Notes: generated by a model from the letters alone, not told the origin. Shown: positions 1-53,810, counted from the whole stretch's first letter. The stretch: 57,862 nucleotides of DNA, filler included, from Sluysia triapertura (GCA_046118255.1; 4 parts of 4 records of this genome joined end to end with filler, not necessarily neighbours in it), one strand, 5' to 3'. Numbers and translations: made by a program.

Positions 1-760
1 AAATTAAAGTAACCGCAATCTTCCCAACAAGTCCTAACAAACAGTTAACATAGCTTTTAATTTCATCTCCATTTTTTTCAATTATATGTCAGAAAACCTA
101 AAAACATTAAAGAAAAGTTCTTGTATTGTAAGACAAAGGTTTATGCATTATTATGTACTACTACCTCCTATCACTATTATTATTACCACTTTTCAATTTC
201 ATTATTATTTACTATTATTATCCTTATTATTCTTATTATCATTTTTTAATTTTATTATTATTATCTTCATTATTACAATAATTATTATTATTTCTTTATT
301 ATCATTATTATTACCTCTTTTTATTATTAGTACTATTATTATTATTCTCATCAATATTACTATTAGTAATCACAATTATTACATCACAATACTTCAACCG
401 ACTTATGATGTAATAATTACATTGAAGTACAATCATTGAAAATATGTACATTACATCATAAATTCATATCGAAGCACAAAAATCAATATCGTAATCAGCA
501 CACCACCCAATCAGATAGCTCACAAGTATTCTTATTTATCTCTAATCTGATTGGGTGAAGTAAAGGATCGTTTCTGTTATACACACAGACAGAAAATTAA
601 ATCAACAGCCAATTAAAAAGGGCAAACACTAGACATCCATTAATTAAAAACATTTAATGTAATTGCTAGGCTGACAGCCATCTTGACGAAAATTAATATC
701 ACAATTAGAGAATCACCATTATTAAAAAAAAGCAAAAAATTTTGTGAATGTTTAAAAATT
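1..760 (+). repeat. 5' module of dispersed cargo-carrying element, copy A (cut by window start)
   Basis: 77-170 (ttcaattatatgtcagaaaa..aaagaaaagttc..taagacaaaggtttatgcatta) aligns by eye with ~28713-28795 and ~53295-53365. All three are followed by a TAT-rich tract, a CCAAT-type motif and an A-rich leader. Confidence 0.7.
504..557. promoter_or_regulatory. 13-bp perfect inverted repeat of opposed CCAAT boxes (putative element promoter)
   Basis: CACCCAATCAGAT (504-516) and ATCTGATTGGGTG (545-557), 28-nt spacer, ~200 nt upstream of the ORF at 748. Promoter role is inferred. Confidence 0.55.
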
Positions 761-2295
761 CAATTGATAGACAGAGTAAAGAAAAAAAAACTTTCAAAAG
801 TCGTCAAATTTTGAAGATTCATCATCAAAACTTTTCATCGTCAAAACTATTATCTAGTATGAATTCTCAAGCAGAAAGTGTATCTGAAATTGGACTCGAT
901 GGAAGACGGAGGGCAATCGAAAACGAAGCCAAAAGAGAAAGTGAACTAAGTAATCAAGTTGGTTGTATTACAGAAGCTGATGTTAATACTCATGATGAAC
1001 AATGCAAGCAGTTTGTTAGATTCTTAGAAACAGAGACACTTACCATGAATATTATCCTTGATGATCAAGAAGCTCTATGTAGACTCAGAGATTTAGATTT
1101 GATGTTTAATGTAGAAAGTAGAGACAGATTGTTAGCAAGGCCTAGAGTTGTTAATCAGATTAGAGAGTTTGTAAATAGCATGGGAATTTTAGAGGTAGAG
1201 ACACTTAGCTTTAATTTTATTCCTGGTGGTGTTACAGCAAAACAGTTCATAATGCACCACAATGCGTTCGATCTGGATATACACGTGACGGGTGCACCAG
1301 AATTGTATTTAAAGGATTCGGTAGCGGGCGGTTGTCCTTATGTATTTACGATTGGTAAACAACAACGTATTGAAGATGCAGATTCAACTCATAATACGGA
1401 TTTCGCGACGTGTGAATTTTATTTAGCTTACGAAGATTATAATGATCTAATGAAGATAACAGAGGAGGCGTTACTTAGTTTAGTTACGAAGATATCCAGT
1501 ATCTATGAAGCTTCAATGAACAATGATATACAAGATCGTAGTGAAAAACAAATGCTGAACGGCATATTCTTAGATGCTGCAGAATCCCCGGCTCATGTAA
1601 ATAGAAGTATGGCTACTTTTCTTTTTAAGTTTACAATTAATATAATTGATACAGTTTTAAACTTCTTATTAACATCTTATTTTTATAGATTTGGTACAGC
1701 GTGCGAAAACGAAAATGGACTCCGCAAGAAAGGAACTCTGTTTGGTGACGCCCCATTGAACAACCTTTTAATACATGTTTCAATACATTTTGATATTAAT
1801 AGTTTTTATTTGTCTAAGTCTAAAATTTATTATAAAAGTTGTAAATTAAATAATAGTGTAAACATCGATCTAGTGACACAGACACACTCGAAGAAATCCA
1901 AATATTTTGAACCACTAAAAGAAATGATTGACATTTATTCCAATTTATGTATGAAATGTTATGCACAATCCAATCTTAATATCAAGTCACACCTTCCATT
2001 AAGTTTCATGCCCCATTGCATAAGTCTTCACATACAAACCAATTCTTCCTCCAACTTTCTTGCGTCTCCGAACATCTTTAAATTAGTAAAATATTCAAAC
2101 AACATGACAATAAACTATATAAGACGAACTAACATCACGATTTTAAATCCCATAAATAATTATTGTGTTGTAAAATTTTTATACTTTCTTAGTATCCAAT
2201 TATTCTTGAGTTATAATAAAAACATTCCCTTAAGGATTAGACCGACAATAACTTTGACATTTTACATGGTGCACCTTATTAGGTGCAAAACATAA
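748..2295 (+). CDS. Chimeric ORF containing a degenerate class II lysyl-tRNA synthetase catalytic-domain fragment; the 3' third is probably not real coding sequence
   Basis: 515-codon open frame; aa ~104-249 are LysRS-like and the flanks are unrelated. Possible GT-AG intron at 1597-1688. The 3' end runs into the non-coding repeat module at 2215-2440. Confidence 0.55.
   Translation: MFKNSIDRQSKEKKTFKSRQILKIHHQNFSSSKLLSSMNSQAESVSEIGLDGRRRAIENEAKRESELSNQVGCITEADVNTHDEQCKQFVRFLETETLTMNIILDDQEALCRLRDLDLMFNVESRDRLLARPRVVNQIREFVNSMGILEVETLSFNFIPGGVTAKQFIMHHNAFDLDIHVTGAPELYLKDSVAGGCPYVFTIGKQQRIEDADSTHNTDFATCEFYLAYEDYNDLMKITEEALLSLVTKISSIYEASMNNDIQDRSEKQMLNGIFLDAAESPAHVNRSMATFLFKFTINIIDTVLNFLLTSYFYRFGTACENENGLRKKGTLFGDAPLNNLLIHVSIHFDINSFYLSKSKIYYKSCKLNNSVNIDLVTQTHSKKSKYFEPLKEMIDIYSNLCMKCYAQSNLNIKSHLPLSFMPHCISLHIQTNSSSNFLASPNIFKLVKYSNNMTINYIRRTNITILNPINNYCVVKFLYFLSIQLFLSYNKNIPLRIRPTITLTFYMVHLIRCKT
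1021..1494 (+). pseudogene. KARS1: Intronless lysyl-tRNA synthetase fragment (motifs 1 and 2; no anticodon OB-fold, no motif 3)
   Basis: LDDQEALCRLRDLDLMFN..LEVETLSFNFIPGGVTAKQFIMHHNAFDLD..APELYLK..GG..VFTIGKQQRIEDADSTHNTDFATCEFYLAYEDYNDLMKITE matches eukaryotic LysRS (DQETRYRQRYLDL..LEIETPMMNIIPGGAxAKPFITYHN..RIAPELY..[33 protein letters not shown]). Confidence 0.92.
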
Positions 2296-2440
2296 AAAAT
2301 TGATTAATGATCAAACATTATTTTCTTTTACTTCACTCAATCTACTTTTACTTAAATTACTTCTCTCATTAAAATAATGAATAACTTTAGATTTTAGAAT
2401 TGAATAGATTTTCACATCCAATTTTCTAATGGTAAATGTT
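2215..2440 (+). repeat. 3' module of dispersed element, copy A
   Basis: aggattagaccgacaataac..tacatggt..ttattaggtgcaaaacataaaaa..ctcaatctacttttac..ttacttctctcattaaaataa..ccaattttctaatg aligns with 31870-32140 and 49720-49970. Contains hairpin TGCACCT-TATT-AGGTGCA (2270-2287). Confidence 0.85.
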
Positions 2441-3450
2441 TAAGGTTAAATAATCTAGTTTTAGACTTAATGTTATTTCATGCTTAAAGGTTTTATTTAA
2501 TACTTCATAATATTTATCTTATCAAGTTAAAATAAACTTAACCTATTTAGGTGTAGTAAAACAATAGAGAAAACCTTTTTATAAGTTAAATAATAACAGT
2601 ACTTTTAAAATCTGAAGTTATGACTAGTGTAATTATCACTACTCTAAAGTAGAGAGATCCTAACAAGTAGAAACTTACGAATTGTCTCCTGTGATACCAA
2701 TTAGTCTGATGATACTCTTGAACGTGCAGCATAAACTATCCATTTATATTATATATGGTACTACGTGAAAAATTTAGAAAATCTTCGAATAAGCACTATT
2801 AAGATTTATGAGTAAACTCTTCGTTGTGAGTAATTATGTGAATGAGTCCTCTTTAAATACTTTTCTCTTAGTTTAATGCGTTTTCCATTTATTTTGTAAT
2901 TAATTTAATGTAATTCCTATCCAATTTTAATTTTATTTATTTATTTTATCATTTGTTTAATTGCACTTCTTGTTTGAGTAGAGTTATTTTAACCATTTGT
3001 TAATTTTTTATTAATATTGTTTGTTTTTAATTAATTACCTTTTTAATTGCAGGAACCTGCAGGAAATATATTAATTCAATTGATGAATGATAATTTTGAT
3101 GAAATTTTAGCAATCATGTTCTATCCTATTCCATAATAATTTTATTATGTTCAATGTTTTTCCATATATTTTCTTGCCTATAATAGATTTTTGTTTATGT
3201 TGTTTCCATGGTGATTTATTAATGCACTATTTCTTTTTTCCGTATTGATTTATTAAAATAAAATTCGTTTTATTAATTTTATAATTCACATTTGTATTAT
3301 GAAATTGTGAGAGCTGAACTGCTGAACTGTTACTGAACTGTTATGCTGAACTGCTTATAGTGATTTTATAAAGAATTGAATTGTGATTATTATGTGATTA
3401 TATTAATATTATGTAATTATATTAAATAAAATTATTATAAATATTACATT

Positions 3451-3540
3451 AAAAAATTATAAAATATAAATTTAAGTGAAATAAAATATTTAAAAAATTA
3501 GAATATAAATTTAAGCAAAATAAAATATTTAAAAAATTAT
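3451..3540. repeat. ~40-bp AT-rich tandem duplication
   Basis: aatataaatttaag(tg/ca)aaataaaatatttaaaaaatta occurs twice in tandem. Confidence 0.6.
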
Positions 3541-3797
3541 TATATAATTTTTATAAAGTAAAAATCAAATTCTAGTAAATATTCTAAAAATTAATTAAAA
3601 AATTAAAATGATTTGTTTAAATAAAACAAATCTTTCTATACGTGTAATAACACGTTCAAGAACAAAAATCAACTATAAATTTAGTTGCAAATTATGGAGC
3701 AAACATAACAAAAATTTTCAAATTCTTAATCATTATCCAAGGACACAGAAGAAGATCCATGTATTCGGTAAGAATATTTTATATAAGTTTGTCCTCC

Positions 3798-4165: not shown

Positions 4166-4348
4166 AAATCTTTAAAATATTAACAAATAATAATAATAAT
4201 TTAAGGAGATAATTGTTATAAACTTATCTAAACCTTAAGTCTTTATCTATTTCTATTTCTTATATTATAAATCCTAATAGGCCGCCGTCTTATAGACTTA
4301 AGTCGTTCTTGTTAGGTCGAACTCGTCTAGGCTTATTTGCATCGTAGG

Positions 4349-4984
4349 TTAGGTATAACCCAGAATCGTAGCAAGTATATGTAATGGACGTTGCAATAAC
4401 AAATAATTTATCAAAGATCGATTAGTACCAAAAATAACAAATACAAAAATAGCACGCATTATTAACATACCAGAAAATAATCCAAGTAAGAATGTAGCCG
4501 TAATATGATAACGTTCACTTATTCCAATTGTACTTACTAATAATTCATTAGAATCATCTTGATGAAATGAAATACATTCTGTTGAATTTTGTTTAACTTC
4601 ACGCAATTTGTTACGAATAAAAATATCGTGATTTTCTTGTTTAAATCATCTTGGTTCTTCTACGTAGACTGAATCGCCTAAAGCACCTTGTGTGGCCGTT
4701 TGTTTCTGTATAGTATGCAATTGAGATGCATCAAAATCTGTTGCTTTTACATAGTTTTCAATGTCATCTTGTAAGTCGTCTAGATAATGTTCTAAACCAA
4801 CTTTGTTAATCGACTGTTGAATGTGTTGACTTAATGTGTTCAGTTAATGTTGGGCCCTCATTAATGTGTTATTAACTTGTTGAATTTCTGATCGTCTTTG
4901 TCGACGAGGCTTTCAAGGTTTACTATCGGTTTCATTTGTATAACCTTCATTAATTTCTCCATTATTATCTCTAGAATCATTCAT
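4349..4984 (-). pseudogene. TMEM237: Intronless, 3'-truncated TMEM237-like pseudogene (ciliary transition-zone membrane protein)
   Basis: One frame from ATG at 4984 (MNDSRDNNGEINEGY..) with three in-frame stops. GDSVYVEEPR*F resembles TMEM237 GKVFVEKSRRF, and ERYHITATFLLGLFSGMLIMRAIFVFVIFG resembles [30 protein letters not shown]. Confidence 0.65.
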
Positions 4985-5360: not shown

Positions 5361-7693
5361 TTAGGGAGAAACAAAAGGATAAAAAGAAATAAGGATAAAA
5401 GAAATAATAATAATGATAACAATTACGTGGTTATTATACTTATTAATACTGAATTGTTGATGTAGAAATTTATTATGAAAACTATTATAAAAGTTATTAT
5501 AAAAGTTATTATTTGATATTTATATTATATAACAATAATGACAATAATTATTATATATGTATATTGTTTAATACGATTTGAATTGTAATAATTAGGTGCG
5601 ATGATCATATTTGTTTTTTGAATGAGTTTAGTAGTTTGTTTAATAGTCTGTGTAAATGTGAAATGTCTTTATGTGATGAAATGTGATGAATTTTGTGTGA
5701 TTTCCCTACAATAACATATTACTTGAAAGGTTAAACGTCGGCTTAAGACCGTAAAAATAACTAATAAATTTTAACATGAACAAAGCAAAAGAACTCAAAA
5801 TGACGAACGATATATTAAAGAATGAAACAATAACACGTTTAAAATAAATCGTAATAAACCGTAATATTGATGTTCAAATACGGATAAGATTAAAAGTGAC
5901 ATTATGCAGAATATATTGTTTACAGCAAAATATGAAGCTGTTATTGTTAATAAAATGTAATTAGTATTCGAAACATTAATTGTTAAAAAAATTAAGTATA
6001 ATAAACAATTCAATGATACTACATATTACAATTATGTTACGCAAAAACCAATAGTGATCATGTAAATAAAAGAAGTTATTATGTGTATAAAACAGAAAAA
6101 CATAAGATAAATTATGATAACCTTCAAAAATAACAAAAATAAATAAACTGCTATCCTAAGATCAGAAAAAAAGAATCTAGTTTAGTAATAATAAGTCCAT
6201 CGTTTTTAAAATTACCACAAATTATCAAATGTTGAAACATTAGTTAAATAAAAGAGAATAAAAAGCATGATAAAAAAATTTTTATCACCTCTTTATACTG
6301 TGAACTGAGTCGTTTACAAATGAAATAATTGTATACTTTGTTCAGTGTTCGTTTGGGAAATAAGCAAATAACAAGAAGTATCAACGAACTAATAGGTATT
6401 ATAATTAATGAAAAAATTGCAGTAAATGTAACTGTTTTTATTCCAATTAATAAAATAAGGAAAATGGTTAAACATGGAAGTGCACCATTTAATACAAGAG
6501 AAAAATTTAGTTTTGATTTCTACGTTAATATAAACATTAAATTTTTCATTTAATATATTAATACCTGATTCTTTTCGATTGAATATCTCACCACTTCCTT
6601 TTTCTCAGGGAAATTTGCCAAAGATATCATCTGATAAGATTATAAATATTAAATTGCAAAGGCAAAATTGATAAATAAATCGCATATAGTTAACATAAAT
6701 AAAGGTAAAACGAAACAGTTAGTTATACATGAAAAGTGTATATATTGTAATTCGGCTTAAAAATTGGTCGTCATAAATTAACATTATATAAAAAGATAAA
6801 CTAACCAATGGATAAAATGTTATTACTCCTTGTATTTAAATTAACACTGGATAAGATAGAGTTATTTAAATATATCATACAAAACAGAACGTTTACATAG
6901 AACTCAAATAGATAATTTAATATCCACGCTTTAAACTTATTCTGTCATGATTAATATCAGGTTCTAAATTCAATTTAGTAATAATTTACGATTTATTAAT
7001 AATTTACATATTATTACACAACTTTGTACAACCATTACCATAGATTTTTTAAAAATTGTGTTTATTTACTTATTAATATTTAATCATATCTACAAAATTT
7101 ACCAAGACAAATATAAAATATTTGCAATAGTTATTTTTCTACAAAACAAAAAATATTAATAAAATGACGAATCCTTTAAAAGTATCTATTTTTATCACTT
7201 ATAATAATTTTATACAAAATAATAGATAATAAATCTTTAATAGTTCTATACGCAAGACAGTAGTAATGTATAAATGTGGGATATTACTTTAAAAAGAAAC
7301 AATGTTAGAAAGAATAAGAAATCAGAAACATAAAAACTAAATAATGATGGTTAAAATGGATTAATAATCGAAATTTTTGATTTTATATGCATATATTTGT
7401 CTTTGAAGCTGTACATTCATGCCAATAGCAGATTGTAAATCAGATTCCATATTAATACAACGCATCATGAGTTCTTCACATATTCATTTTGATCATATCA
7501 AAGGTACATGTTGTATGACTAATAACTTCATTGGATATGTTTGTAAAGACTCTTTCATGCGAATAAATATAGGACTTAATGAGGAAGATCCCAATATCGA
7601 ATTGTGCTGAGTGGGAGAAAGTAAGATATTATTCATTATTAAAGTTTCTGTACTGTTGGAGTTGCGTGTATGTGAATCTGAGAAACACTGAAT

Positions 7694-7824
7694 TCATTCT
7701 GACCTCATATATTTGTGAATAATTTTCTGCTGATTTTTTATTGTTTTACAAAGATTTTCTTTTCCTTTTTCAAGTAAATCAATAATTCTTTTGGTTTCAG
7801 CAAATTCATCTTGACTATCTGTTA
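7694..7824 (-). other. Candidate exon, unidentified
   Basis: Acceptor ttttgcttgatctag, then TDSQDEFAETKRIIDLLEKGKENLCKTIKNQQKIIHKYMRSE*; the frame stays open past the TGA. Confidence 0.25.
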
Positions 7825-7884
7825 CTAGATCAAGCAAAATATATTTATCTATTGCAACATTTAATTGTTATTTTCTTTGTTCAG

Positions 7885-8023
7885 ATCTAGTGAAGAATCA
7901 GTTGTTGTTTATGAGGTGCCATTTAAGCCGTTTTTTGATTGGCAGAAGACTGTTGCTTCTACAATCTTGCATAAATCTCATCTGGAGCAGCAATTAATTC
8001 ACCATGATGACCTTCTTGGATAA
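7885..8023 (+). other. Candidate terminal coding exon, unidentified
   Basis: Good acceptor ttttctttgttcag, then SSEESVVVYEVPFKPFFDWQKTVASTILHKSHLEQQLIHHDDLLG*; locally raised GC. Confidence 0.35.
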
Positions 8024-8179
8024 TAACAAAGAAAATTTGAATGAATACGAAATTATTATGACTGTGTTTATGTTTTAAATGTAATGAGTACTTTGTTTAA
8101 TAATTTGTTTATGTAATATGTATCGATTTATGTTAGTGTTTGCTTGTAATTGTCATCAGTTGATCTTGAGTTCACTACA

Positions 8180-8500
8180 TTGACGTCTCTGGTAGCTGAT
8201 TATATATTTTTGAAACATATACGGTTTGTATCATACTGTCTAGCTTATTATTACTGTGGATTTTGTATAGATTATTATGTCTCAATAAAATATTCATCTT
8301 GATTTCTAAATTTTTTATTATTTCTAAGAGATATTCAGGACTTCCATTATATAAGCATTTCTAAATTTTTGTAATGATTTTGAATTATATTCTTGCATTT
8401 ATTGGCAACAATTGTAATTATTTCAGATAACATGATTAATTATTAATTGCAATTTTTTCACTTTTCTATATGAAATTGAATGCAATGTACCATTGTACAA
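8180..8500 (-). mobile_element. 3' remnant of a non-LTR retrotransposon, same family as 38040-38855
   Basis: tctctggtagctgattatata.. and tgattaattattaattgcaattttttcacttttctatatgaaattga align with 38092-38430. Confidence 0.75.
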
Positions 8501-9699
8501 CATCTCAAATATACTTAATCAATAAAAGAAAATTTAAAAAAATTACGAATCAAACAGTAACGCTGGATGAACGAAAAAAGTATAAAGTTATTAAAATATA
8601 AAGAAAGAAATAAACACTAATAAACAAAAATTAATACAAATTAACAAATAACTGGAAAATAAATGTATATTACATTGGAAAATTAAATAAATAGATTTAA
8701 TTGGTTATATTGTCACACTAATATAAAGAATGAAAGAAATGGGCCATATAATAAAATCAACTACAGAATAGTTATTATAGAATTGAACTAAAATCAGAAA
8801 AAGAAGTTATAAAAATAAATTAGTTTCAATATAACCTGCACAAATTATGGAACCGAATCTTTTCCAATATAACAATCCTGTAATATTATTTGCATGGAAT
8901 CTATAAGTAACTTATCTATCCACTACATTTATAAATAATGTACTTAATGATATGATGCAAAACTACAATCACTTTAAAGATCATGTCAATGAGATTGATT
9001 ATAAGTATCAACAACCGAGATAAATCAATTGACATAATGTATACGATAACTATTCGTAAAGCCAAATTTATTTACTGTGTGGTAGAGTAATTATAATTAC
9101 AGTTTAAATAATAAATTTTTGTTGAAATATCGAATAAAACGGAATAAAATGAATTATCATTAATAATATTATTATTATATTTATTGTAATAAATAATTTT
9201 TAAATTTTTTGCTTAAATTGTTCGATTAAAATCTGGACAATGAATATCAAACCTTTAAATTTTGTAAATCTTTATCAATAATGTAAATATGGTCAGTGTA
9301 TGATGCATCTATTTTCATCACTCTGGGTAATTCACCATTCATTTCATAGCTATGCATTTGTTTATAATAATCAGAATTAGCAAGTTGACGATAATTTTTG
9401 AATAGAAGACACTAATTGATACATGTTACACATCGAAAAAAAGTATGTGTTGAAATTATTAAAATTAAGTGATAATTTCCAAAAAAATGCATCATTTAAT
9501 AAGTATAATGCATTATTAAAATTTATAAGCACATAAATTCACATAACGTGAACTAACGTTACCCATTTACCATTGTTTTTTTATATTCAGTATACAGAAG
9601 AATTCTCTATGATATGTTTTATTTAATACATCTAAAGCCATATATCCAATCATTGAAAGAACTATCTTCTTCGTCAAACATAAAGCAGCTTCAAAATTT

Positions 9700-12459: not shown

Positions 12460-13260
12460 GTCTCTCACAGATCGCCACTAAAATAATTGAAACCAGCGCA
12501 CAAAAAGGTTACATGGACCTCTAACCTAAATATAATTAAACCCTCAATATTTTAATCCCAAATATGTAAGACAAGCTTCAAAACTAATAATATAAACCTA
12601 ATATAAACAACCACAAAGATAGCCGCATTGGTATGCACATCGAATGCGTCATTTGACATCTAAATATTACGTGGAGTGTCGACTTTAACAATAAAATCAA
12701 CACTTTCCACTATAAGCAGTATCATCTCGTCGATAGTTCTAGCAAAAGCTTATCATTAGATCCCAGTGCATTCATCAGAAGTACCGAACTTTTAAAGTAC
12801 ATGCGAATTTTGTTTTTCGTAATACCAACCAAGCCTTTCAAAGGCATATGGGTCAAACCTTGGCTGCCTTTTGCGGTTGCGCATGTCGACATCATTATAC
12901 AGTTGGCCGATTCAATATCTCACAGAGATAATCTGAAAGAAGCCATCCAAAGACTTGCGCACAATGATCTTAACCGAAAAAATTCTCATTTTTGCATTTC
13001 TTGGTAATAGTACTTCTGCTAAGCATCACAAAGGCATTAAGGAAATGAGAATTTTTCTTGGTGCGGTTAACTTTTGTATGTGTTTCCTACCCTGACTTCC
13101 TCAAATTTTAGCGCTTCCTACAGCTTTATCTTCCAGAAATAAATGCAACTTATCAAATGGACAGATACTTCACTACAGCTTTTCAAAATAATAAGAATCC
13201 CATTCCATTTTAGTTAAGTAGAGATACGTCAAACGCAGCAATCGATGCCGTCATAAAATT
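12460..13260 (+). mobile_element. Degenerate Ty3/gypsy pol remnant (RT and start of RNase H)
   Basis: VLAKAYH*IPVH (DLxKAYHQIPVH), RNTNQAFQRHM (RNAAQTFQRFM), LPFAVAHVDIII (LPFxxxYIDDIL), KEMRIFLGAVNF..FLP (KELRRFLGMVNFYRRFIP), IKWT, RDTSNAAIDAVI (TDASNxAIGAVL); many frameshifts and deletions. Confidence 0.88.
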
Positions 13261-19551: not shown

Positions 19552-19684
19552 ATATATATGTATATAGTACAAATTATAAACCAATTAAAAAAAGATAAAT
19601 ATAAATTTTCAGAAAATCATTTAGAAATAATTCAAGAAAAGCAAAGAAAAGTTGTACGACAAAATTTTAAAACATTAATCCAAC

Positions 19685-19968
19685 CTGGAAACTTCCCCAA
19701 ACACTTTCTGCTACAACAGTTGGATAAAAATGACTTGTCATAGCATATTCTTGCTGTAAAAACACTAATAAACTGTCCAATTTGATTTGAAAAGAATCGA
19801 CCGAAAATTCGAATTTTCTTCTCATTCGATGCACTAACTTTAATTCCACTATACGACTATTGCCATAGCTACTACCGAAAGAAATCAGTGACCACAAATC
19901 ACCATTCGAAGAATCACTAATGCATACTTGTTTATGTATGTAGCTTTCCGATATTAAATTCGAAGAAG
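19685..19968 (-). CDS. TENT5: TENT5/FAM46 terminal nucleotidyltransferase, third observed exon
   Basis: Acceptor ttattttcag, donor CAG|GTTGGA. ISESYIHKQVCISDSSNGDLWSLISF..VELKLVHRMRRKFEFSVDSFQIKLDSLLVF..MTSHFYPTVVAESVWGSF matches FAM46 EAYVQKMVKV..DRWSLISL..VELKFVDSxRRQFEFSVDSFQIxLDSLL..FxPTVxGESxYGDF. Confidence 0.93.
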
Positions 19969-20629
19969 CTGAAAATAATGATACATTTTTAATGAATATT
20001 GTATTATATATTAATTAAAGTATAATTATATTTCTTCTATAATATCTTAAGTTCATCATCGTTTATCCAGGTACAGTATAAAGTTATTTTTAGTAACAGA
20101 TATTGTGATTCGTCATGCGTGACTACTAACTTGTATCTTATAAACCATATACGTTCATTATACATATTTCTCATTGTTGAAACTTAACAGTGAACAAGGA
20201 TCAACGTTCAACTTGATTATTATATCTTGATCATTAATATCTTTAACTTTAGATATGATAGCTTCTATCTAATTCCATAGAATATCTACTGGTAAACATT
20301 TATATCAAGAAAAATAATCATAAATATATTGTTTTTAATATTGAACTTATATTTTCCATGTTTTTGTCATGACAACCCTCTAAAATTATGCAAAATGCTA
20401 TTAATAGTCTTTTAAAAAAGAAAATTCGCTTCTAAAAATAGAATAGAACATTCCATCGATTCCCATTGGCTGATAACTAGTACATAAACTAGTATTAGTT
20501 TATTGAGAATTGCCATTTTTAAAATTTCTATCGATTTTCGCTTACACAGGATTATTCGAGTTTCATATCTATTCAGAACTTGCTTTATCCTAAAATGCCA
20601 TTTGGAATAATTGACTGTAGTAATCTAAA

Positions 20630-20732
20630 AATTGTTATACGGGGCTGCTAGCTCAGTGATAGAGCATCTAACTGCGCATTAAGAGGTCCCGGGTCGATCA
20701 TTGGTCAGTCCATTTTATGAAGTCTAACAATT
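20630..20732 (+). repeat. tRNA-derived (Cys-like) short repeat or tRNA pseudogene, copy 1, enclosed by an 11-bp inverted repeat
   Basis: GGGCTGCTAGCTCAGTGATAGAGCATCTAACTGCGCATTAAGAGGTCCCGGGTCGATC..CAGTCCA has an A box, a degenerate B box and resembles tRNA-Cys (AGAGCATTTGACTGCAGATCAAGAGGTCCC). Stems are broken. Flanks are AATTGTTATAC and GTCTAACAATT. Confidence 0.75.
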
Positions 20733-20861
20733 GATGAGCCCACATATCGAATGTTGAATTAAATGATTTACAAAATGTTTGATGACAAACATAATTGATT
20801 TGGGTGAGATATGTTAGGATACAGGCCTAAGGTGCCGTAGTGTAATGGAGTATAATGATAT

Positions 20862-20943
20862 AAAAATTGTTAGATAGCTCAGTGGGCAGAACATCTGATT
20901 GAGCAGCGAGAGGTTCCGTCAGTCCATTTTATCAAGTCTAACA
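20862..20943 (+). repeat. tRNA-derived short repeat, copy 2 (internally deleted)
   Basis: aaaaattgttagatagctcagtgggcagaacatctga..gaggttccgtcagtccattttatcaagtctaaca shares both flanks with copy 1. Confidence 0.7.
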
Positions 20944-37979: not shown

Positions 37980-38039
37980 TATCTACTACAAAGTATGTGC
38001 TTAAAATAAATCATTCACTATAATATTTCTGAAACAGAA

Positions 38040-38855
38040 AAAACTTTGCCTTTTTCTTAAATATTTCATAATCTTCAAGTAATTTAACACTCTCTGGTAA
38101 CTGGTTGTATATTTTTAAAACATAAACGGTATACAACCTATTACCATCTTATTATCACTATGCATTCTGTACAGATTATTATACCTCATTGAAATATTCA
38201 TCGTGGTTTCCAATTTTCGTACTATTTCTAAAAGATATCCGGGACTTCCGTAATGTAAGAATTTGTAAATCATTATCATGATTTTGAATTCTATTCTTGC
38301 TTTTATTGGTAACCTATATTATTCCTTAAGATAAGGTGTTACATGAGATATTTTTCCCACTTGGAGAATTAGTCTTGCTCCTTGATTAATTATTAATTGT
38401 AATTTTTTTACTTTTCTATGTGAAATTGAGTACAATAAACCATTGTTAAAATCTATGTTACTAGTTATCAATGAACAAACAATGAGTTTATTTGATATTT
38501 TCTTCCATGTTCATTTTTGAATCCATATAACAGCCTATATTCGTACTTTTTGCTTCGCATACAGTATTTTACCACCTAGAATTAACTTTGTTTCATTTAT
38601 TTTAGTGTTGTAGCTATTTTTATTGAATATTATAAATTCTGACTTTTCTTCATTTATTTTCAAGTATTTATTTCCAAACCATTTTTTATCAATTCAGATA
38701 CTAGTTCTTCAAATACTTATTTTATGTTTTTCATTTCAAGTTCAGTATATATTTGCATGTCATCAACTTACATATGGTATTTATAACCATATGATTTGAT
38801 TACACTTGAAACATCATTAATATATATAAACAATGAACCAAATATTAATTCATAG
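38040..38855 (-). mobile_element. Non-LTR retrotransposon (L2/CR1-group-like) RT and C-terminal remnant
   Basis: LIFGSLFIYINDVSSVIKSYGYKYHM*VDDMQIY (LGPLLFxIYINDL..YADDTQIY), WFGNKYLKINEEK (WxxxNxLKLNxxKT), KIYNQLPESVK..IFKKK (WNxLP..FKxxL). Confidence 0.85.
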
Positions 38856-41800: not shown

Positions 41801-42092
41801 TAAAGGTTCCAAGATAAAATACATGCAGGGTTCTTATAGTATTCTTAAATATTTCTCATATAGTCAAGGTCTTCGTTTGATGTTTCCTTAAACTTATTCA
41901 CTGCAAATTATCTGAGAAGTCGGTTCGCCTAATATATACGCTTTATACCACTATTGAGGACGTACTATTAGGTTTTCTTAATTCGATTGAACTTAACTAC
42001 CTTTTTACTTTAACTTTAATATCAATTACTTTAATTACTTTATGGTACAACCATTTGCTAGATGTTTAAAATTTTATATTTTACAAATTACT

Positions 42093-42344
42093 CAACCCGT
42101 ATTAAGGTGTTGCTTTGAAAATATATTAGTACTTTAAAAGATTGCGCAAAGGTGTTACTTTGCAAAACGGATTTTAGGTTAATAACAAAAGAAGCTTAAA
42201 ATTCTTAAGGTATATTACAGCACAAAATCTAAAACTTACAAAAATGACTTATAATAAAAATAAGATTTTAGTTCAACCACTCAATTATTAATTGGCAGTT
42301 TTGTATTTTAGAAAGATTTTCCGCAACCCGTATTAAGGTGTTGC
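42093..42344. repeat. 21-bp perfect direct repeat pair with internal dyad symmetry
   Basis: CAACCCGTATTAAGGTGTTGC at 42093-42113 and 42324-42344; partial copy aaggtgttactttg at ~42149. Confidence 0.8.
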
Positions 42345-44408
42345 ATCAAAAATAAAATCAGTTAAGTATATTTTAAGTTTCCTTTCTTAAAGTGAAACCG
42401 TACAAACTTATAATAATTACTGGTTGTGCATGGAATTGAAAATGATAATATTCTTCAAATAAAAGTTTCTTCTGGAACGATAAAATTTTGTTGATCACCA
42501 AAAACGTTGTGCCAAGATTTTATTCTAAAAATTTGTTCTAAACTGTTGTCAAAATTTTATGTTAAAACTCACCCATTTAATTCTAATTTATTTTAATATG
42601 TCTTACGATAAAATAAATTGACACATTTAAACAAAATTTATTTTTGATTTCATGTTTTATTTTAATTTCTTAATTTTCTAATTTTTAAATTTTATTAATG
42701 TCAATTCCATTAATCTTAATTAATTTTATTTAATTTCTTATTAAATTAATTTCAATTCCAAAAATTTTATATTTTGAATATTTAATAAATATTTAATTTA
42801 ATAATATATTTAATTATATTTAATTTAATAATAAATATTTAATAAAAATGAAAACACATTTAAATTACATGAATTCTTTATACGTGACTTCTTAAACCTA
42901 ACAGTACTATGTAAACGCTTATTTAAGAAAGTAATTTGTACTTGTTTTCGTAAAAGATTCAACTTTCACAACCGTGGTTAATAATAAAATAGCTGTATTT
43001 AATAGCTGTGACAGTTATATTTAGAATATATATTAATATTTAACGTATATTAAAAACAAATTAAAACAATATTAATTTTTTTACTCTAAAATTTATAATT
43101 GTGGTATATTATATGATGTAATAATTATTTTTACTTTGTTTTTTCCATATGCAAATAGCATAATGGAATTACTTACTTTATTCTTATCACCAATGATTTA
43201 CAATTCAATTAATTTAATACAAATTACCCATTGTCCAATCTGCAGCCGATATTAATCTTCAGCAATTTTAATAAAAAAATCACACTAATTAACCCTAATA
43301 ACACTAATTAACGCACTATTAAATTTTAATATAAAAATATAATATTTATTATGGATTTTAAAAAATGTGGTAACACACTTGTTTCATATCAGTGAATTTA
43401 AATTGAGTTTAAGTCCTATGTAAGTAAGACGATCCTTATAAAAATTAAACTTACGATCATGGAAAAGCTAAATAATTTTAAATCAGTCGAATGATGACTG
43501 CTCCAAATGTAATGTTAGAATTACGAAGTTCATTGGCAATTTATAATATGAATTGCACTAAATTTTTATTCCTTTCGGCTCCTGTTAAATTTTCACATTC
43601 AGGTCTGTTCTTTGTACATAATAATTTACTTTTTATAATCTAACCAGAAAAATAATAAAAAGATTATCAATATAACTTTTGTTAGTTGATGAATAATAAA
43701 ATAGATATAAAGGAATTGTAAAATATTTTAATATACTGCTACTAGTAATAAAAATGAAATAAAATACTTTTTACAATTATATTAAAATTAAAATTTGTTT
43801 ACGGTATTAAAAATATTTTTTATAAAATTTACAATATTCTTTACAAGGATTATTATTAAAAATTTTATTTTTCCTTGAAAATTATTTCTGTTTATATATA
43901 TTGCACCTTACAAAACAAATAATTGACATTAATCTCTAATAAACAGCAGCCTCAGTGCATCACCGTAGTTTTAGCAAAAGTAATCGGATATTCTTGTTTT
44001 TATTCTTTTCTGCTTGTATATAGTTGAAATACTTACGTTATTTTGTCTGATTATATATAGTTAATAACAATTTCATTCCACTCTCCTTACCAATACCAAT
44101 AATATATACACAAAAATTCATATAATCACAGAATTATGTACTGACAACTATATTAATAATATAATTCATTCTACTTTTGCATAAAATGAATTACGTACTT
44201 TCATTTTGTTAATTAATATTGGCTCATTATTTTTATTACAAATTACTATTATTAATTTGCTATTTTATAAAATTGAATATTAAGTAATATGATATTAACA
44301 TCAATTACACTTTTTTGTGATTCACTATTTACATTTTCTTTTAAGTATAATTTCTTGTTTATCATTACATTTCATGACTTATTTTTAAGCATTCAATCAG
44401 AAATAATA

Positions 44409-44473: not shown

Positions 44474-44474
<1 letters not shown>

Positions 44475-46603: not shown

Positions 46604-49569
46604 TTATTATTATATTATTATTATTTTATTATTATTCTGATTTTTTTGATTTGTACAATAATTAATTTTAATAAAAATATTTGGGAGATTTATTTTTAGT
46701 TATTTAAGTTATGTGAATAAAAATCATTAAGGTTAAAAAATTATTTCTTTAAATTCTATGAATTTCGTAGAACAAAATATCCTAATCCATAAATGTTTTT
46801 GAAGTTATCAAGTCAATTTTTGAAAATGTTCCATATTAAATAAATGATAATATGTTGAAGTAATATCTGGTAAATATGGTGTGAAATATGAAAGTCACCA
46901 TGCATTTATACTCTAGTCATTTTTTATCTAAATATAAATAACGTTACCTAATACACAACATAATGAACTTCATTTTTAATGTTCATATAAGGTCCTTATT
47001 ACTACTTTATAAAAACTAAATTCTTTTTTGAAATTTGACTTTAATTAACTGTCAAATTTTTATAAACGTACAAAAGCGGTTACATTTTAGAAAGTAGTCG
47101 AGAATTTAAATTTATGAGTTTATTACTTAATATAATGTTATAAATTTATTTTAGTGTCTGTTAGTTGTGAAAATGCTGTGTACTTCCAACTTTGTAATAG
47201 GATTAGTTACTCTACAGTTTATGCTAAAAACTTAAAATTTATTAAAGATTTAACAAAACTTAGATATAAATTAAAATAGAACTTATAAGAACATCATCGT
47301 GACAATTTTTGAACTTTTAATTATAATTTTTTGTTACTTTTTTACTTTAACATCTTCCAATCATTTAGTTTAATTAGTGTAACATTTGTTATTGAATCCA
47401 TTTGAAATTCTTGCGATTGACGTTTCTGATAAACGCATTGTACATATCAAACTTCCTTAAATTAGTAACAAATTTTGATTAATGTTCAGATGTTTTCCCT
47501 ACTAAAACAATCACTTAAAATTCAAATAATATTTATTGCTGAATTCACGTTAGAAAATAATGATTATAACTTGTAATCAAATAAATGTTAACTGTCACAA
47601 ATAATTGTTAATAATCAAGAATAAGTGTTACAGTTACAAATTATTCACAATTACAATTAAATTTACATAAAAATTAATAACGTGAAAATTACAAAAATAA
47701 ATAAACCAAGGTTGACGCAATCAAATCTGTGATATCTTCTAAATTTAAATCAATATAGCCATTTTAAAAGGAAGGAATATTAACTATCATCTTTTAATAA
47801 TAATTCGATTCTAATTGTAAAGGTACGATTTGGGTACGTCGAAAACACGTTTAAATAGTAATATAATATTTTTAATCTGGTAATTTAAAAATTAATAGAT
47901 TTAATAAAAAGAATAAATTAATAAATAAAATTCTAGCAGGTGAAATTAAATAATTAAATCTACGAGAACGTATCAATAATATAAATATTGAAACATTTAA
48001 AACAGGATACGCATTTGTTTATAAGTGTTATACAAATTTATCCACGAAAATTTTTAACAAGCTTTTAGAATTAGTTAATTGTAATATAAAAGATCTTCAT
48101 TCAACAGAGGACTTGATTCGTACTTAGCATTATAATTGCTTCTGTATAATCGATACTACGCAAAATAATTATTTGAACTACCCATTTTCCCAAGATTGTT
48201 ACAATAGTGTCTGCAGATCATATTCTCTATCTAGATATTAATTCATTCCTACTCAGTAAATCAAAGAGATTGGTAAGTTTTTTCTTCATTCTTTTTATTA
48301 AAATCCACAGAAAGATCTTTTAATTTTTATTCTAGCATACGATAATCAAAAAATATAAAATTTTAATTATTAACATTACGGCCAAAACCTTAATGCAATG
48401 ATTAATTGGTTTTCATATAGAATTGCTATTGTACCATTCAGTAGGAAGTTGTGTTATTAGATACAGCATCATTGTACAAATTCGCGACATGAGCATATTT
48501 AGTCGGTCAACTTATTTTCATGTTTACATAAACCTCTAAAATAAATATACGAGACAAAGCTTTAAGATAAAATTATATTGATTAAATCACACTTGGATAG
48601 GTTAAGATATAATGCTTCGGAATTATATTTATTGTGAGACTAATATTATTTTTGAAGTCATTAAATTGAGAAGAATCTCAAATAATATAATAATTGCAAA
48701 GACAACAAACATTTCAATTAACTTTAAGTATACGAAATAATCTCGTGATATACCGTGAGCAAAATAGATTGGATTCCAGCATAATAGGAATAATTCCAGC
48801 ATAAATTAACAAAAGTGAATAAACTCATATAAGTGTGTCCTCAGATAATTAAGTCGAATAAAAATTTTAATTATAAAGGTTTTATTTCAAATCGTAGTTC
48901 TGTTGGATCTTAAATCAAGATTATTAACAAGAATAATTTAATAATTAAATTAATTCCAAATTTTTTTAATGTATTTTCAGTGATCGTGAAATAGTTACTA
49001 ATTATTGATTATCCTCTAAATTTTAATATTCACTGAATAAATGCAAATCTTAATTTATATATTAAAATCCTTGTAAATTCAATTAACAAGTACAATTTAT
49101 TATCAATCCTCTTATGAATAATAACAAAATTTTTTCAACCCAAAAATTATTTATTATTAATTTCAAATAAAAAATAACAACTCAATACTATATTAAATAG
49201 AAAAGAAAACCAAATATAATAATATGAGTAAATTAACTAAAAATGATGTGATCTTCAACAATATTAATTAAAATATAAATATCCACAGAAATTAGCAATT
49301 ATATTTACGTCTTGTCAAATGTCTTTCTTTTAACGTAATAACAAAAAATACTATAAAAGTTTGGGCAGGGAATCTCCCACTATTCAATTAAAATCGACAC
49401 TTAAAAGTTAAAAATCAAAATTCATTTTTAAAATAATAGTTAAATAATAGCAATTTGGACAAGGAGCCCTCAAAATATTCAAATTTATCAATAGGCAAAA
49501 AAATTTCTAAAATTAAATTAAAAAATATTTTAATTAATTCAAATTATAAAATAAACAAAAATATTACAA

Positions 49570-50020
49570 TTACCATGGATTTTCTTTTTTTTCTCGTAAA
49601 CTTTGACTTAAGTGTTGTGTAAAACATTATCTATGTATTCGCTCTTATATCTCTTTACGTCCAATCACTCACAAACTCACAATCAGGAATTACCATTACA
49701 CAAATCATCAAAACCTCCTTTAAAGATTAAACCGACTAAAACGACTTTGACACTTACATAGTACGACCTCAGAAGCAAAAAAATAATTCGATTAACAATC
49801 AACTCTCATTTTTCTTCTACTCTACTCGATCTAGTTTTTCATTAATCACTTCTTACATTAAAATAACAATTATTATTATTAACATGCTTTAAAATAATGA
49901 ATTTAACTTTAGTTTTTACATTTTAATTAATTTTCAATTCCTCATACTCAATTTTTTAATGGAAAATGCTTGAGATTCCAATTCCCAAACTAACCATTTC
50001 AAAAACATTTTAATCTCACT
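49570..50020 (+). repeat. 3' module of dispersed element, copy C
   Basis: Colinear with 31720-32184 and 2215-2440 (aagattaaaccgac..actttgacacttacatagt..actctactcgatcta..acattaaaataaca..taacatgc..aaaataatga). Confidence 0.85.
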
Positions 50021-52449
50021 TTCGGATTCTCCTATTTCATAGCAATCATGGCATACCCAAATCATCATCTTTTCATCATTCTAAATGTGAAAATTTCAAC
50101 ATTTTTTAATTAAAAATTAATTAAAAATTAAAAAATTCGACTTTAAAGCTTTACTCGCATGAACGTGGTCAAACCTTATCTTCATCGGAAGGTCTCTTTA
50201 AAAGCACATACATACACAATTACAGTTTGAAAATAGCATTTCTCATTGAAAAGTAATTCACACAAACGTAGTTTAATTAATTGATTAATTAAACTTATTT
50301 TATTCTAAGTTTAAAGGTTATAAAGTTGTTAAATACTTTATAAAGTGCTTAGGAGGCTTTAGATGTTATTACCTTCACCACTCTGATTCTTTTTTCTATT
50401 TGTTTAATTCAATTATTATTGCATTAAATTTAACCATGGTTTTCAAAAAAATAATATCAAACCAATACGAAACAAAACACGACGCAAAAATCATAGCATA
50501 GATTCTAATATATAATTCCATTCAAAAAATTTCAAAATTATAATTATTTATGAACAATATTAATTTTCCAAACAAGAAGAAGGTTTCACATGACATCTTA
50601 TCTTCAGAAAGTACTGGTTAGCAATAAAAGCAATAATAGAATACAAAATCATAAAAAGAATTCATAAATCCTAAGTAACTCTTGGAAATAATAAAAATGT
50701 AGAAATCAGAACGAAGATTGATTTCTACCAAATAACGTTAAATTACTAAAATATTATGAAATGCTTTAGAAAAAGGCAAAGTTATTTTTGTTTCAGAAAT
50801 AGTATAATAAATTATTTGTTTTAAGAGCTTTTTGAGCACTCACTTAATAAATATTACTATTATTATTATCATTATCAATATTACTATTAATATTATAATT
50901 ATTATATTATATTATCATTATTAATGTTATTACTACTATTTAAAATGTAATTTATTTATTTTTTCTTTATTATTATTGTATTATTATTAATTATTATTTA
51001 TAAAATAACGATTTAAATATTTAAATTTTATAATAATAGCAATAATTATTATTTATTATTATTATTAAAGATTATTAATGATTATTATTTATAATTATTA
51101 TTTATTATATTATTACATTATATTATATTATTTTCATTAATATTATTATTAATATAATCGCTTATTATTGTTGTTATTATTATTATCAATTATTATTATT
51201 ACTAATTATTAATATTATTAATATATTATTAATATTAATATTATTAATTATTATTATATTATCATATTTCAGATATTTTATATCACTTTTTCTTATATAT
51301 AGATAAAAGTTTTGTATTACTTGTTGTTTTCTTAATTTATGTGGTGAGTCCTTTACAATCTTAGTCTTACTCACTTAAGGGCTAAGTTGTTAGTAGCAAT
51401 CAAAGAAATGATAACTGGAGGTAAATAAGATTTTTAAACTCTAACTATTTAAGTAAAATTGATCCTTTCTTTGAAAACTAATTGGAATTTAATATATAAA
51501 AATTTACGCAGAAGTTTATTAGAAAAATTATGTCTTAAATTGTCTTCTTTTTAATATTTTGTATCAAGTAATGTTTAACAAAATCTTTTTGAAGCTGTAA
51601 ACAAAAGTGATAATTTACGTGATATATTAAGACCGTATTATAAAAACGGCACCTTACAATTATCAATACTTTCTTTAATAATAAATTTAAGAGTAATTTA
51701 CGATCGTACCTTATGTATAATTTTCAGATAAAAAATATATATAGGGAAAATTTAAAATATAATAGAAACAAGAAAATCTAACAAATAATTAGCAACATAA
51801 TAACAAGTTTACAAGATTATAATATAATCAAATTTAAAGGTTTTCGTTTAAATTTTTCATCACCCAAATTAAAAGGCGCGATTTTGCGCACAAAAAAATA
51901 GGCACATCTTGATGTAAAAAACTAACGAGTAAGCCGAATGCGTACTTGCTGTAATCAATCAAAATCCAGATAATTAGAATATTTTAAGATTTAAGATAGA
52001 TGTATCAATAGAATTCCAACAGATCCGAATAACAAAATCGAAGAATTTTAAAAAATTGATGGGTAAATCCAAATAATTCAAATAAAGAATAAATAAATAA
52101 CTTTTAAGACTGCTCTGTGCTGTGTGTGAAGTGTATAAAATTGAAGCATTAAATAGATTTTTCAAACGATCTTGATCAGGCTAGTTCAAACAATAAGTTA
52201 TTTTGTAAATTATTCTATTTTATAAATTTAATAATAATATGCAAGCAGAATTTTATTTAAATAATATTTTTTAAACTTTTATTAAAATATTTATTTAAAA
52301 CTGTGTAATAATATATGTATATTTAGAAACATTAAATATTTTATTGATTTTCTTTGTATAGAACTAAAGCATAAACATTCGACATATTGAATTTGAATAT
52401 ATTTTTATTTTTTAATCTAGTTTTATTTGTATTTAGATTTGAACTTTAG

Positions 52450-53417
52450 TTATATTGAACAGACTTGAACTTCTACATATTGTGGTGACCAACCCAATAT
52501 TTTACAGTTTTATTTCAATAACACACAGTAAAATCACTAGTCAAAATATTTCATAATTCTTAATATTCCTAAACATAAAATTACATAACATTAAATTCAC
52601 TTTTAATACCGAAAATCATCAAAGATTTACTTTAAAAAAGTAATTCATAACAGTACAAACTTAATTCAACACATTTCACATAAAATCACATTCTATTACC
52701 TATTTTTACATCTAAACCTTTCCATATTTTTTTTCTACATCCACTAAAACATTATCATAACCTTCTCAAAACATCTTTATTTCATACTTCATAATATTAA
52801 CATTACAATCAATTTCAGAATTTATGACATACGTTAAAAATTCATTAAAAACATTTTTATTCACAGTTACATAACAGTGCAATCATAATGACATTTGTTA
52901 ACAATGTATAAATGCCTTTAGAATGTAATAAGACCGTCAATATATTTCAATTCTGTCAGATTCTCCAAAATTATTTTTAATATTTTAAAACATTTCAATT
53001 CACAAGCTTAGCATTCGAAACCATTAATGCACATCAAATTGTTTTTAAAATGTTTCTAATTCACAATTTTTCATTGTCCAAACTTTCTCTTCAGTCAAAA
53101 CCACCAATCTTCATTTAAAATTCACTTAAAACAATTTATTCTTTATCACGTAACATTAGAATCAAAATTACACCTAATTTTATCGAAAATGCATCATATT
53201 AATTTATAACATAATAAGTTACAGAATCCCAAAATTTAACCATTTTAGACATTTCAATTAAAATAAATCTTTTCAAGATAATAAGTCAAAAGATTTATGT
53301 TGAGAACTAAGATTAAATTAAAAGAAAGATCATGCTTGAATATATCATAAGAGATTTATGTCTTTATTATCAATTAATTTTTATTATTATTATCATTATA
53401 ACCATTATTATTATTAC

Positions 53418-53478
<61 letters not shown>

Positions 53479-53810
53479 GTTATTTAATGTTATTGATTTT
53501 ATTATTATCAGCAATATGGACAGAATTAAACTTATTTTAGCATTGTCTTTTTGTAGCTACCACTATCAGTAATGACAGTCTTAATTTCTGCATATCATCT
53601 GTCATTACTGATAGCCATTAATCAAAACATTTTGAGCGAAGTGCAATTGGACATCCAATCACTTCTCTATAACTAAATACTATTATTCCCTTGATTGGAC
53701 ACACTCACTATATAGTAATTTTCAACAGAGTAATTAAAAACACACAACTATTCCCAAATAAAACGCGAAATACAAAAAACGACTTGTAAACATAATTAAA
53801 GACAGCACAA
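52450..53810 (+). repeat. 5' module of dispersed element, copy C (no recognisable cargo follows)
   Basis: Shares several 13-18-nt blocks with 27700-29150; same order of C/A-rich block, (TAT)n (~53382-53478), hairpin, CCAAT dyad and A-rich leader. Confidence 0.7.
53563..53699. promoter_or_regulatory. Double inverted-repeat module (16-bp perfect IR plus opposed CCAAT boxes)
   Basis: CTATCAGTAATGACAG (53563-53578) and CTGTCATTACTGATAG (53599-53614); TCCAATCA (53654-53661) and TGATTGGA (53692-53699). Confidence 0.6.

What the first reader, a model, noticed from the sequence alone, without database searches (positions are those of the whole stretch)
1..53810. Modular gene-capturing element family: conserved 5' and 3' blocks around swapped host-gene cargo
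Seen: the same 5' module (1-760, 27700-29150, 52450-53810) and 3' module (2215-2440, 31720-32184, 49570-50020) each occur three times in one orientation on different contigs. In copies A and B they bracket unrelated intronless cargo, LysRS catalytic domain versus PSD/EFA6 Sec7, both in sense orientation right behind the CCAAT module. Known: Pack-type TIR elements, Helitrons and LTR elements capture gene fragments. Inference: this is a non-autonomous family with its own promoter cassette and an exchangeable cargo slot filled from mRNA, producing chimeric genes. I found no TIR, LTR, TSD or Helitron terminus for it, so its class is unassigned and it may be undescribed.
Basis: partly seen in the sequence, partly recalled or inferred. 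Interest (0 to 1): 0.9.

Follow-up and report, generated by a model that had tools for sequence, protein, structure and literature searches.

The report
Old repeats flanking decayed gene copies
In an AT-rich invertebrate genome, two broken copies of ordinary host genes sit between the same worn-down repeat blocks, probably an old jumping-gene family that picked up gene pieces in a known way, but a tidy "promoter cassette with a swappable slot" is not shown.

Summary
Partly confirmed. The 3' block is a real three-copy repeat (73-78% BLAST identity; scores 167-360, nulls at most 93). The 5' "module" is much weaker: B and C share collinear patches, A shares about 125 bp with B, and A-C fails once the ATT microsatellite is removed. 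Both cargos are real and degenerate: a LysRS catalytic fragment and a Sec7 domain (PSD/EFA6 label only recalled).

Against a clean cassette: copy C has the blocks in reverse order with no cargo; a piece of the 5' module recurs inside B after the cargo; a third decayed gene copy (TMEM237) has other flanks; no TIR, LTR pair, Helitron end or poly(A) tail was found.

For linkage: all three 3' blocks have a same-strand 5' block within 2.5 kb (simulated P 0.0005-0.003, post hoc). Unexplained: copy A keeps a 478-codon open frame although 13 of 47 near-invariant LysRS residues are changed.

Best reading (0.45): an old non-autonomous, mosaic, Helitron-like family carrying captured gene pieces. Main rival (0.33): independent pseudogenes among dense old repeats. 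mRNA origin, copy number and class remain untested because no genome is held.

The parts
75..199 (+). Block Y of copy A, the only part of A's 5' region clearly shared (with B); runs into an ATT microsatellite (201-365)
   Evidence: score 79, shuffle max 50; profile of B+C finds it at E=0.053, null best 9.7; TRF
504..557 (+). Hairpin made of two inverted CCAAT-type boxes; CCAATCA at 507 followed by CTCAC
   Evidence: fold z -3.9, 0 of 200 shuffles; motif census. Promoter function is inference
859..2295 (+). Chimeric ORF A, 478 codons from the ATG (frame open from 748): 62 unassigned residues, LysRS fragment, 253-codon tail ending inside Z
1045..1527 (+). Degenerate lysyl-tRNA synthetase catalytic-domain fragment (motif 1-2 region); 13 of 47 near-invariant columns changed
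1534..2295 (+). Stop-free tail in frame with LysRS, no known relative; 0 stops in frame, 29 and 28 in the other + frames, 17.8 expected
2160..2456 (+). Block Z, copy A (shorter than B and C; internal deletion)
27908..28714 (+). Block X and the G-poor stretch after it, copy B; collinear with C 52483-53246
28711..28850 (+). Block Y, copy B, with short ATT-like tract
28888..28990 (+). Hairpin homologous to C 53550-53624, then a CCAACCA..CTCAC motif at 28973
29180..30822 (+). Decayed Sec7-protein copy: ATG 29180, frameshift in a T run near 29497, Sec7 homology 29470-29832 with Lys where an ARNO chain has the catalytic Glu, then an in-frame tail with stops at 30040 and 30376
30618..30943 (+). Second copy of block X, inside B, downstream of the cargo
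   Evidence: 0 of 60 window shuffles against B and C; C + this copy find B 28002-28089 at E=1.4e-4, null best 2.7
31636..32184 (+). Block Z, copy B, cut by the contig end; carries CCAATCA..CTCAC at 31813
49500..50019 (+). Block Z, copy C (true 3' end unknown); CCAATCA..CTCAC at 49661; lies upstream of the 5' block of this contig
52411..53700 (+). 5' unit, copy C: block X (52411/52483-52900), weak Y (53296-53342), ATT tract (53364-53508), perfect 16-bp hairpin (53563-53614), inverted CCAAT boxes (53655, 53692); no cargo found after it
4289..4984 (-). Control: third decayed, contiguous host-gene copy (TMEM237), five in-frame stops, CCAATCA 130 bp upstream, flanks not homologous to the 5' unit or the Z core
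   Evidence: (PF15383 E=1.9e-6, 27.8 bits, cut-off 28.1)

Best explanation
Blocks X, Y, the ATT tract, the hairpin and Z are remains of one old non-autonomous mobile-element family. It works like a rolling-circle (Helitron-type) element: copies land next to or inside each other, new compound elements are cut from the start of one copy to the end of another, and whatever lies between is carried along, including exons or mRNA copies already retroposed there. A and B are compound copies that carry a LysRS piece and a Sec7 piece; contig 4 shows the end of one copy followed by the start of the next; the second X inside B is an internal terminus of the mosaic. The cargo enzymes are dead. Shown: the repeats, their order, the cargo and its decay. 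Inferred: one family, mobility, the rolling-circle engine, any promoter activity and any RNA step.
For: Same-strand proximity of Z and 5' blocks on 3 of 3 contigs that hold either, none on the fourth (P 0.0005-0.003). Collinear B-C patches at a near-constant offset. All blocks are G-poor on the same strand (skew -0.33 to -0.72). A CCAA[TC]CA-N3-9-CTCAC motif occurs 4 times, all in these blocks and on +, against 0.01 in shuffles (pattern chosen after seeing the sites, and two of the four are homologous). Mosaic order, an internal microsatellite and hairpins, with no TIR or LTR pair, fit published Helitron behaviour: compound elements, captured promoters and nested retrogenes (PMC4224331, passages).
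Against: No hairpin+CTRR end at any Z copy; the only one near a block is upstream of B's 5' unit at 27745-27775, one of three distinct such sites in the window. No subterminal inverted repeat shared by copies. No RepHel remnant among 214 stop-free fragments and 38 read-through frames scanned. Only two cargo-bearing pairs. A's link rests on about 125 bp. Unrelated windows reach best-z 6-7 at the 90th percentile in the same scan (true repeats included). An unrelated three-copy repeat (R3) of like divergence and a third decayed gene with other flanks show how crowded the background is. The model does not explain why frame A stays open.
Confidence: 0.45

Rival explanations
1. No cassette: Z and the X/Y unit are separate old dispersed repeats, and the LysRS, Sec7 and TMEM237 copies are independent processed or duplicated pseudogenes that lie among them by chance in a repeat-saturated genome (a LINE could supply reverse transcriptase).
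For: Third pair reversed and empty; X occurs on both sides of B's cargo; TMEM237 copy has different flanks, with a 3' repeat shared with 41871-42434 and 55218-55314; R3 is an equally old three-copy repeat in mixed orientation and reads like the end of an L2/CR1-type LINE ORF (recalled; Pfam and PDB gave no hit); 5' similarities are invisible to single-sequence nhmmer.
Confidence: 0.33
2. LTR-mediated retroposition: template switching replaced part of a large LTR element's inner ORF by host mRNA. Z is the start of the 3' LTR, X-Y-hairpin the end of the 5' LTR or leader, contig 4 a long solo LTR, and the in-frame tails are remains of the element's ORF.
For: Published mechanism gives partial, sense-strand, often in-frame retrocopies without poly(A) or TSD (PMC5131818, abstract and section 5). 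Both tails are coding-like and in frame. Z carries a CCAAT box near its start. Z-then-X order in contig 4 fits one LTR; giant LTR elements with extra domains are known in planarians (PMC6431247, passages).
Against: B's two flanks should be at least as alike as Z copies from different loci, yet 27800-29200 against 30550-32184 scores 73 versus 74+-8, with no shared 12-mer. Nothing after Z in A resembles what follows Z in C. The TENT5 first exon lies where B's upstream Z should be. No conserved PBS or polypurine tract. Tails of A and B are unrelated (p=0.52).
Confidence: 0.15
3. A is a live lineage-specific chimeric gene (and B a recently dead one); the '5' module' is partly this genome's ordinary promoter grammar (G-poor run, ATT tract, CCAAT 130-350 bp before the ATG) rather than an element end.
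For: 478 stop-free codons despite 28% change at near-invariant sites; simulated chance of staying open 0.033 at 5%, 0.004 at 10%, 0 of 1000 at 15% divergence, indels ignored. The same loose layout without sequence homology precedes the TMEM237 copy.
Against: X, Y and the hairpin are shared by alignment, not only by motif. The tail has flat GC by codon position, no relatives and no confident fold (pLDDT 40, single sequence). This reading can coexist with the first.
Confidence: 0.07

Closest known systems
Bat Helitrons carrying captured promoters and nested retrogenes (Thomas et al. 2014, PMC4224331; passages read)
   Same: Non-autonomous, compound elements built from ends of different copies; promoter pieces next to intronless gene pieces; no TIR or LTR.
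   Different: There the TC and CTRR ends, empty sites, poly(A)/TSD of the retrogenes and copy numbers are shown; here none could be shown and the blocks are far more decayed.
LTR-mediated retrocopies of animals (Tan et al. 2016, PMC5131818; abstract and section 5 read)
   Same: Partial sense-strand gene pieces flanked by discontinuous element sequence, without poly(A) or TSD, able to fuse in frame.
   Different: No pair of LTRs, PBS, PPT or gag-pol remnant is linked to these blocks; junction microhomology untestable without parent genes.
DINE-1 / HINE (non-autonomous Helentrons; PMC4067079, passages; HLE2 definition PMC11417382, passages)
   Same: Conserved core, internal microsatellite and hairpin; linked to gene duplication.
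   Different: Defining 11-18 bp subterminal inverted repeats and a 3' stem-loop were not found.
Pack-TIRs / Pack-MULEs (PMC8277862, passages)
   Same: Conserved flanks around unrelated captured host sequence.
   Different: The two flanks here are not inverted repeats of each other.
Burro giant Gypsy elements of planarians (PMC6431247, passages)
   Same: Large AT-rich elements with extra host-like domains, in the group this genome may belong to (taxon inferred, not established).
   Different: No sequence comparison was possible; no Gypsy ORF lies inside A or B.

Membership tests
Helitron (HLE1) | 3' hairpin followed by CTRR, inserted between A and T | tested here: inconclusive
   None at or after the Z copies; but Z's true end is unknown (B cut by contig end, A truncated). 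One such site lies upstream of B's 5' unit, 1 of 3 distinct sites in the window.
Helitron (HLE1) | 5' TC terminus and empty sites | not testable with these tools
   No genome held; 5' boundary not defined by two or three decayed copies.
Helitron (HLE1) | Autonomous RepHel partner sharing the ends | not testable with these tools
   No RepHel hit in the window fragments scanned; rest of genome unavailable.
Helentron / DINE-1 (HLE2) | 11-18 bp subterminal inverted repeats shared by copies | tested here: not met
   Exact inverted 11-mers between 5' unit and Z: 0 in A, 1 AT-rich word in B, 0 in C. A 17-of-19 inverted match in A is absent from B and C.
Helentron / DINE-1 (HLE2) | Internal microsatellite and hairpin | tested here: met
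   ATT tracts; hairpins z -2.4 to -5.4. Not specific: ATT tracts are common in the window.
LTR retrotransposon-mediated retrocopy | Direct terminal repeats on both sides of the cargo | tested here: not met
   B flanks 73 vs 74+-8; no shared 12-mer in B. Only block X and a short motif recur.
LTR retrotransposon-mediated retrocopy | PBS and polypurine tract | tested here: not met
   No purine tract and no conserved CA..TGG site near any block; decay could hide them.
LTR retrotransposon-mediated retrocopy | Microhomology at cargo junctions; intron loss against the parent | not testable with these tools
   Parent genes not found.
Pack-TIR / Pack-MULE | Terminal inverted repeats and TSD | tested here: not met
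   Six 5'-versus-reverse-Z alignments, 19 to 183 of 200 shuffles score as high. TSD untestable.
LINE-made processed pseudogene | Poly(A) tail and TSD | tested here: inconclusive
   No A run of 7 or more after A's cargo; one 7-mer at 31244 in B; old tails decay.
PSD/EFA6 subfamily (cargo B) | Closest to PSD Sec7, followed by a PH domain | tested here: inconclusive
   Sec7 only; no PH hit in the tail; the N-terminal motif is recalled.
NUMT (mitochondrial insert) | Mitochondrial protein homology under a mitochondrial code | tested here: not met
   0 of 12 frames of X and Z hit Pfam under table 9.

The most novel reading that the evidence does not exclude
An undescribed element family without TIR, LTR or Helitron ends that supplies a CCAAT promoter and a 3' block, takes up different host mRNAs in sense and in frame, has seeded decayed gene copies at about one per 19 kb in this genome, and has left at least one still-selected chimeric gene (the 478-codon LysRS fusion).
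Probability: 0.12. Interest if true: 0.72.

Novelty: new member of a known kind. Interest (0 to 1): 0.32.

Why it matters
If the pairing holds genome-wide, it adds an invertebrate lineage in which one element family has duplicated many host genes and placed them behind a ready promoter, a direct route to new chimeric genes; the open LysRS fusion would be the test case. Gene capture by Helitrons, LTR elements and TIR elements is already published for animals, so the interest depends on scale and on whether the class is really new. On this window alone it is an old, ambiguous repeat mosaic with one odd open frame.

Tried and rejected
Genome-wide tests: no whole genome is held. Read or contig laying gave no result, so copy number and boundaries stay open. 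A degenerate Z pattern had 0 matches in metagenome contigs; the A tail had no relative in viral contigs. Earlier-findings look-ups by place, sequence and relatives were empty.

Parent genes and taxon: word-index searches with the LysRS and Sec7 pieces found nothing; phmmer on representatives gave generic LysRS, best hits about 45-51% identical; TENT5's best relative (72%) is unnamed. 'Flatworm-like' is recall only.

Ideas rejected: shared coding tail in A and B (p=0.52); an X copy in A's tail (62 identical columns vs 60+-5); a short peptide match to 48225 (chance level); 5' unit and Z as two LTRs; TIRs or subTIRs; NUMT; RNA family or tRNA (0 hits); A's N-terminus as LysRS N-terminal extension (best 46 vs shuffled mean 49); a fourth 5' unit before TMEM237 (5 of 6 comparisons not significant, the sixth a short unrelated patch); a cargo after C's 5' unit or before C's Z (no Pfam hit at cut-off). 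AlphaFold on the A tail was uninformative. The bacterial promoter scan does not apply. Literature searches found no description of this family, but the organism is unknown and no repeat library (Dfam, Repbase) was available. No supplements were read.
Full report
SETTING. The window is 24% GC and consists of four contigs joined by N-linkers. It holds one ordinary gene, TENT5/FAM46, on the minus strand with multi-kilobase introns (PF07984 hits at 26363-26773 and 19667-20011; middle exon read from the sequence). That points to an animal; a flatworm-like invertebrate is my recollection-based guess (searches gave no name). No genome is held, so all tests are within the window.

THE 3' BLOCK (Z) IS REAL. 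Three copies, 2160-2456, 31636-32184 and 49500-50019, score 167-360 where dinucleotide shuffles, block shuffles and real background never exceed 93. Identity is 73-78% by BLAST. It is not an Rfam family, tRNA or mitochondrial insert. An unrelated repeat, R3 (8186-8505, 37997-38466, 50476-50828 reversed), is equally old (74-80% ungapped), so three-copy repeats of this age are ordinary here.

THE 5' BLOCK IS WEAKER THAN STATED. Much of the raw score is the ATT microsatellite. Without it B-C remains significant (243, null maxima 180-204), A-B is marginal (89, maxima 80-89) and A-C is not (62). Composition-aware alignment resolves three patches: X (B 27908-28102, C 52483-52671), Y (A 75-199, B 28711-28850; weak in C) and a hairpin (B 28888-28964, C 53550-53624; perfect 16-bp stem in C, z -5.4). 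B and C are collinear between the patches (0 of 60 and 2 of 60 nulls). A's CCAAT segment does not align to B or C. nhmmer with single copies finds no cross-hit at E<1; leave-one-out profiles recover the third copy at E=1.4e-4, 0.043 and 1.2 for X, and 0.053 or not at all for Y.

THE LAYOUT IS A MOSAIC. A is Y-ATT-CCAAT-cargo-Z. B is X-Y-hairpin-CCAAT-cargo-X-Z: block X recurs at 30618-30943. Contig 4 is Z, then R3 and an AT-rich tract, then X-Y-ATT-hairpin-CCAAT, with no Pfam-recognisable cargo on either side. The motif CCAA[TC]CA-N3-9-CTCAC occurs at 507, 28973, 31813 and 49661, so in both kinds of block, against 0.01 in shuffles (defined after seeing the sites). Random placement gives P 0.0005-0.003 that all three Z copies have a same-strand 5' unit within 2.5 kb, and 0.004-0.01 for at least two with it upstream. 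This favours one family, modestly, since the blocks were chosen after inspection.

CARGO. A: LysRS motif 1-2 region. Of 47 columns at least 90% conserved among 142 of the 150 hits (8 dropped as aligning over too short a stretch), 13 are changed, against a median of 2% in homologues: the enzyme is dead. Yet the frame is open for 478 codons from the ATG and ends inside Z. The 253-codon tail has 0 stops in frame, 29 and 28 off frame, 17.8 expected; the longest open run in 30 shuffled windows was 150 codons. Neutral decay would keep the frame open with probability 0.033 at 5% and 0.004 at 10% divergence. The tail has no relatives or confident fold. This is the least explained feature. B: Sec7 domain with a frameshift in a T run near 29497, two later stops, and Lys at the position where one ARNO chain has Glu (that this is the catalytic glutamate is recalled). 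Its tail is also coding-like (2 stops in 323 codons, 25.8 expected). The two tails are unrelated. PSD/EFA6 is a recalled label. Neither cargo has a poly(A) tail; intron loss is untested.

A third decayed, contiguous gene copy, TMEM237, lies at 4984-4289 on the minus strand (E=1.9e-6, just under the curated cut-off). It has a G-poor run, an ATT-rich tract and CCAATCA upstream, but no homology to the 5' units. Its 3' flank is another repeat (with 41871-42434, score 124 vs max 62), which ends in a 30-nt patch like the start of Z in B (0 of 100 shuffles) and, weakly, C. So decayed gene copies occur at three per 58 kb, and one does not need these modules; alternatively it belongs to a distant subfamily.

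MECHANISM. TIR capture fails. A classic LTR-cargo-LTR fails because B's flanks are no more alike than shuffles while Z copies at other loci are 73-78% alike, and no PBS or purine tract was seen. Head-to-tail order, an internal repeat of a terminal block, microsatellite and hairpins fit rolling-circle elements best; bat Helitrons form compound elements and carry promoters with nested retrogenes (PMC4224331, passages). But the defining ends (PMC11417382, PMC4067079, passages) were not found, so I do not file it as a Helitron. I give 0.45 to a Helitron-like mosaic family with captured pieces, 0.33 to chance neighbours, 0.15 to LTR template switching (PMC5131818, abstract and section 5), 0.07 to a gene-centred reading.

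NOVELTY. Capture by Helitron, LTR and TIR elements is published for animals (also PMC8277862 and PMC6431247, passages). Five literature searches showed no account of this family, which says little with the organism unknown and no repeat library at hand. Verdict: probably an unannotated member of a known kind; interest 0.32, with a 0.12 chance of a new promoter-and-slot family worth 0.72.

Noticed in passing
window 4984-4289 (-): Decayed contiguous TMEM237 copy with five in-frame stops; a 9-mer occurs both upstream (5746) and twice downstream (4104, 4145), but no longer direct repeat flanks it.
   Followed up: partly
window 4371-3756 (-), 41871-42434 (+), 55314-55218 (-), weakly 5788-5586 (-): Another dispersed repeat family (R4), about 600 bp, ending in a short motif also found at the start of Z.
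   Followed up: partly
window 8186-8505, 37997-38466, 50476-50828: Three-copy repeat R3; the minus-strand reading of 37989-38693 looks like the C-terminal part of an L2/CR1-type LINE ORF2 (recalled; no Pfam or PDB hit).
   Followed up: partly
window 26776-19667 (-): Apparently intact TENT5/FAM46 gene, three exons seen, poly-Asn N-terminus; its ATG lies 1.1 kb from B's 5' unit, head to head.
   Followed up: partly
window 20599-20729, 20843-20943, 24842-24923: Three decayed tRNA-like copies inside TENT5 introns, 76-82% alike ungapped; not called by ARAGORN or Rfam; tRNA origin is by eye.
   Followed up: no
window 12657-13250 (+): GC-richer stretch reading like Gypsy integrase and reverse-transcriptase remnants (recalled; no hit).
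   Followed up: partly
window 27745-27775 (+): Short hairpin followed by CTAG-T, a Helitron-like 3' end, just upstream of block X in B; one of three distinct such sites in the window.
   Followed up: partly
window 45660-45542 (-): G-poor patch similar to B 28446-28575 (score 77, max of 60 shuffles 67), possibly a further fragment of the 5' unit on contig 3; it would weaken the statement that this contig has none.
   Followed up: partly
window 1250-1540: CpG-rich part of the LysRS fragment (observed/expected 1.72 against 1.01 for the window, 0 CpG in 1040-1250).
   Followed up: no
window 46604-46640: Contig 4 begins in an ATT tract about 2.9 kb before Z, the same distance as in B; no other similarity found.
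   Followed up: partly
window 22254-23524 and 7364-8075: GC-richer, stop-poor stretches that may be further decayed genes or transposases; no Pfam hit.
   Followed up: partly
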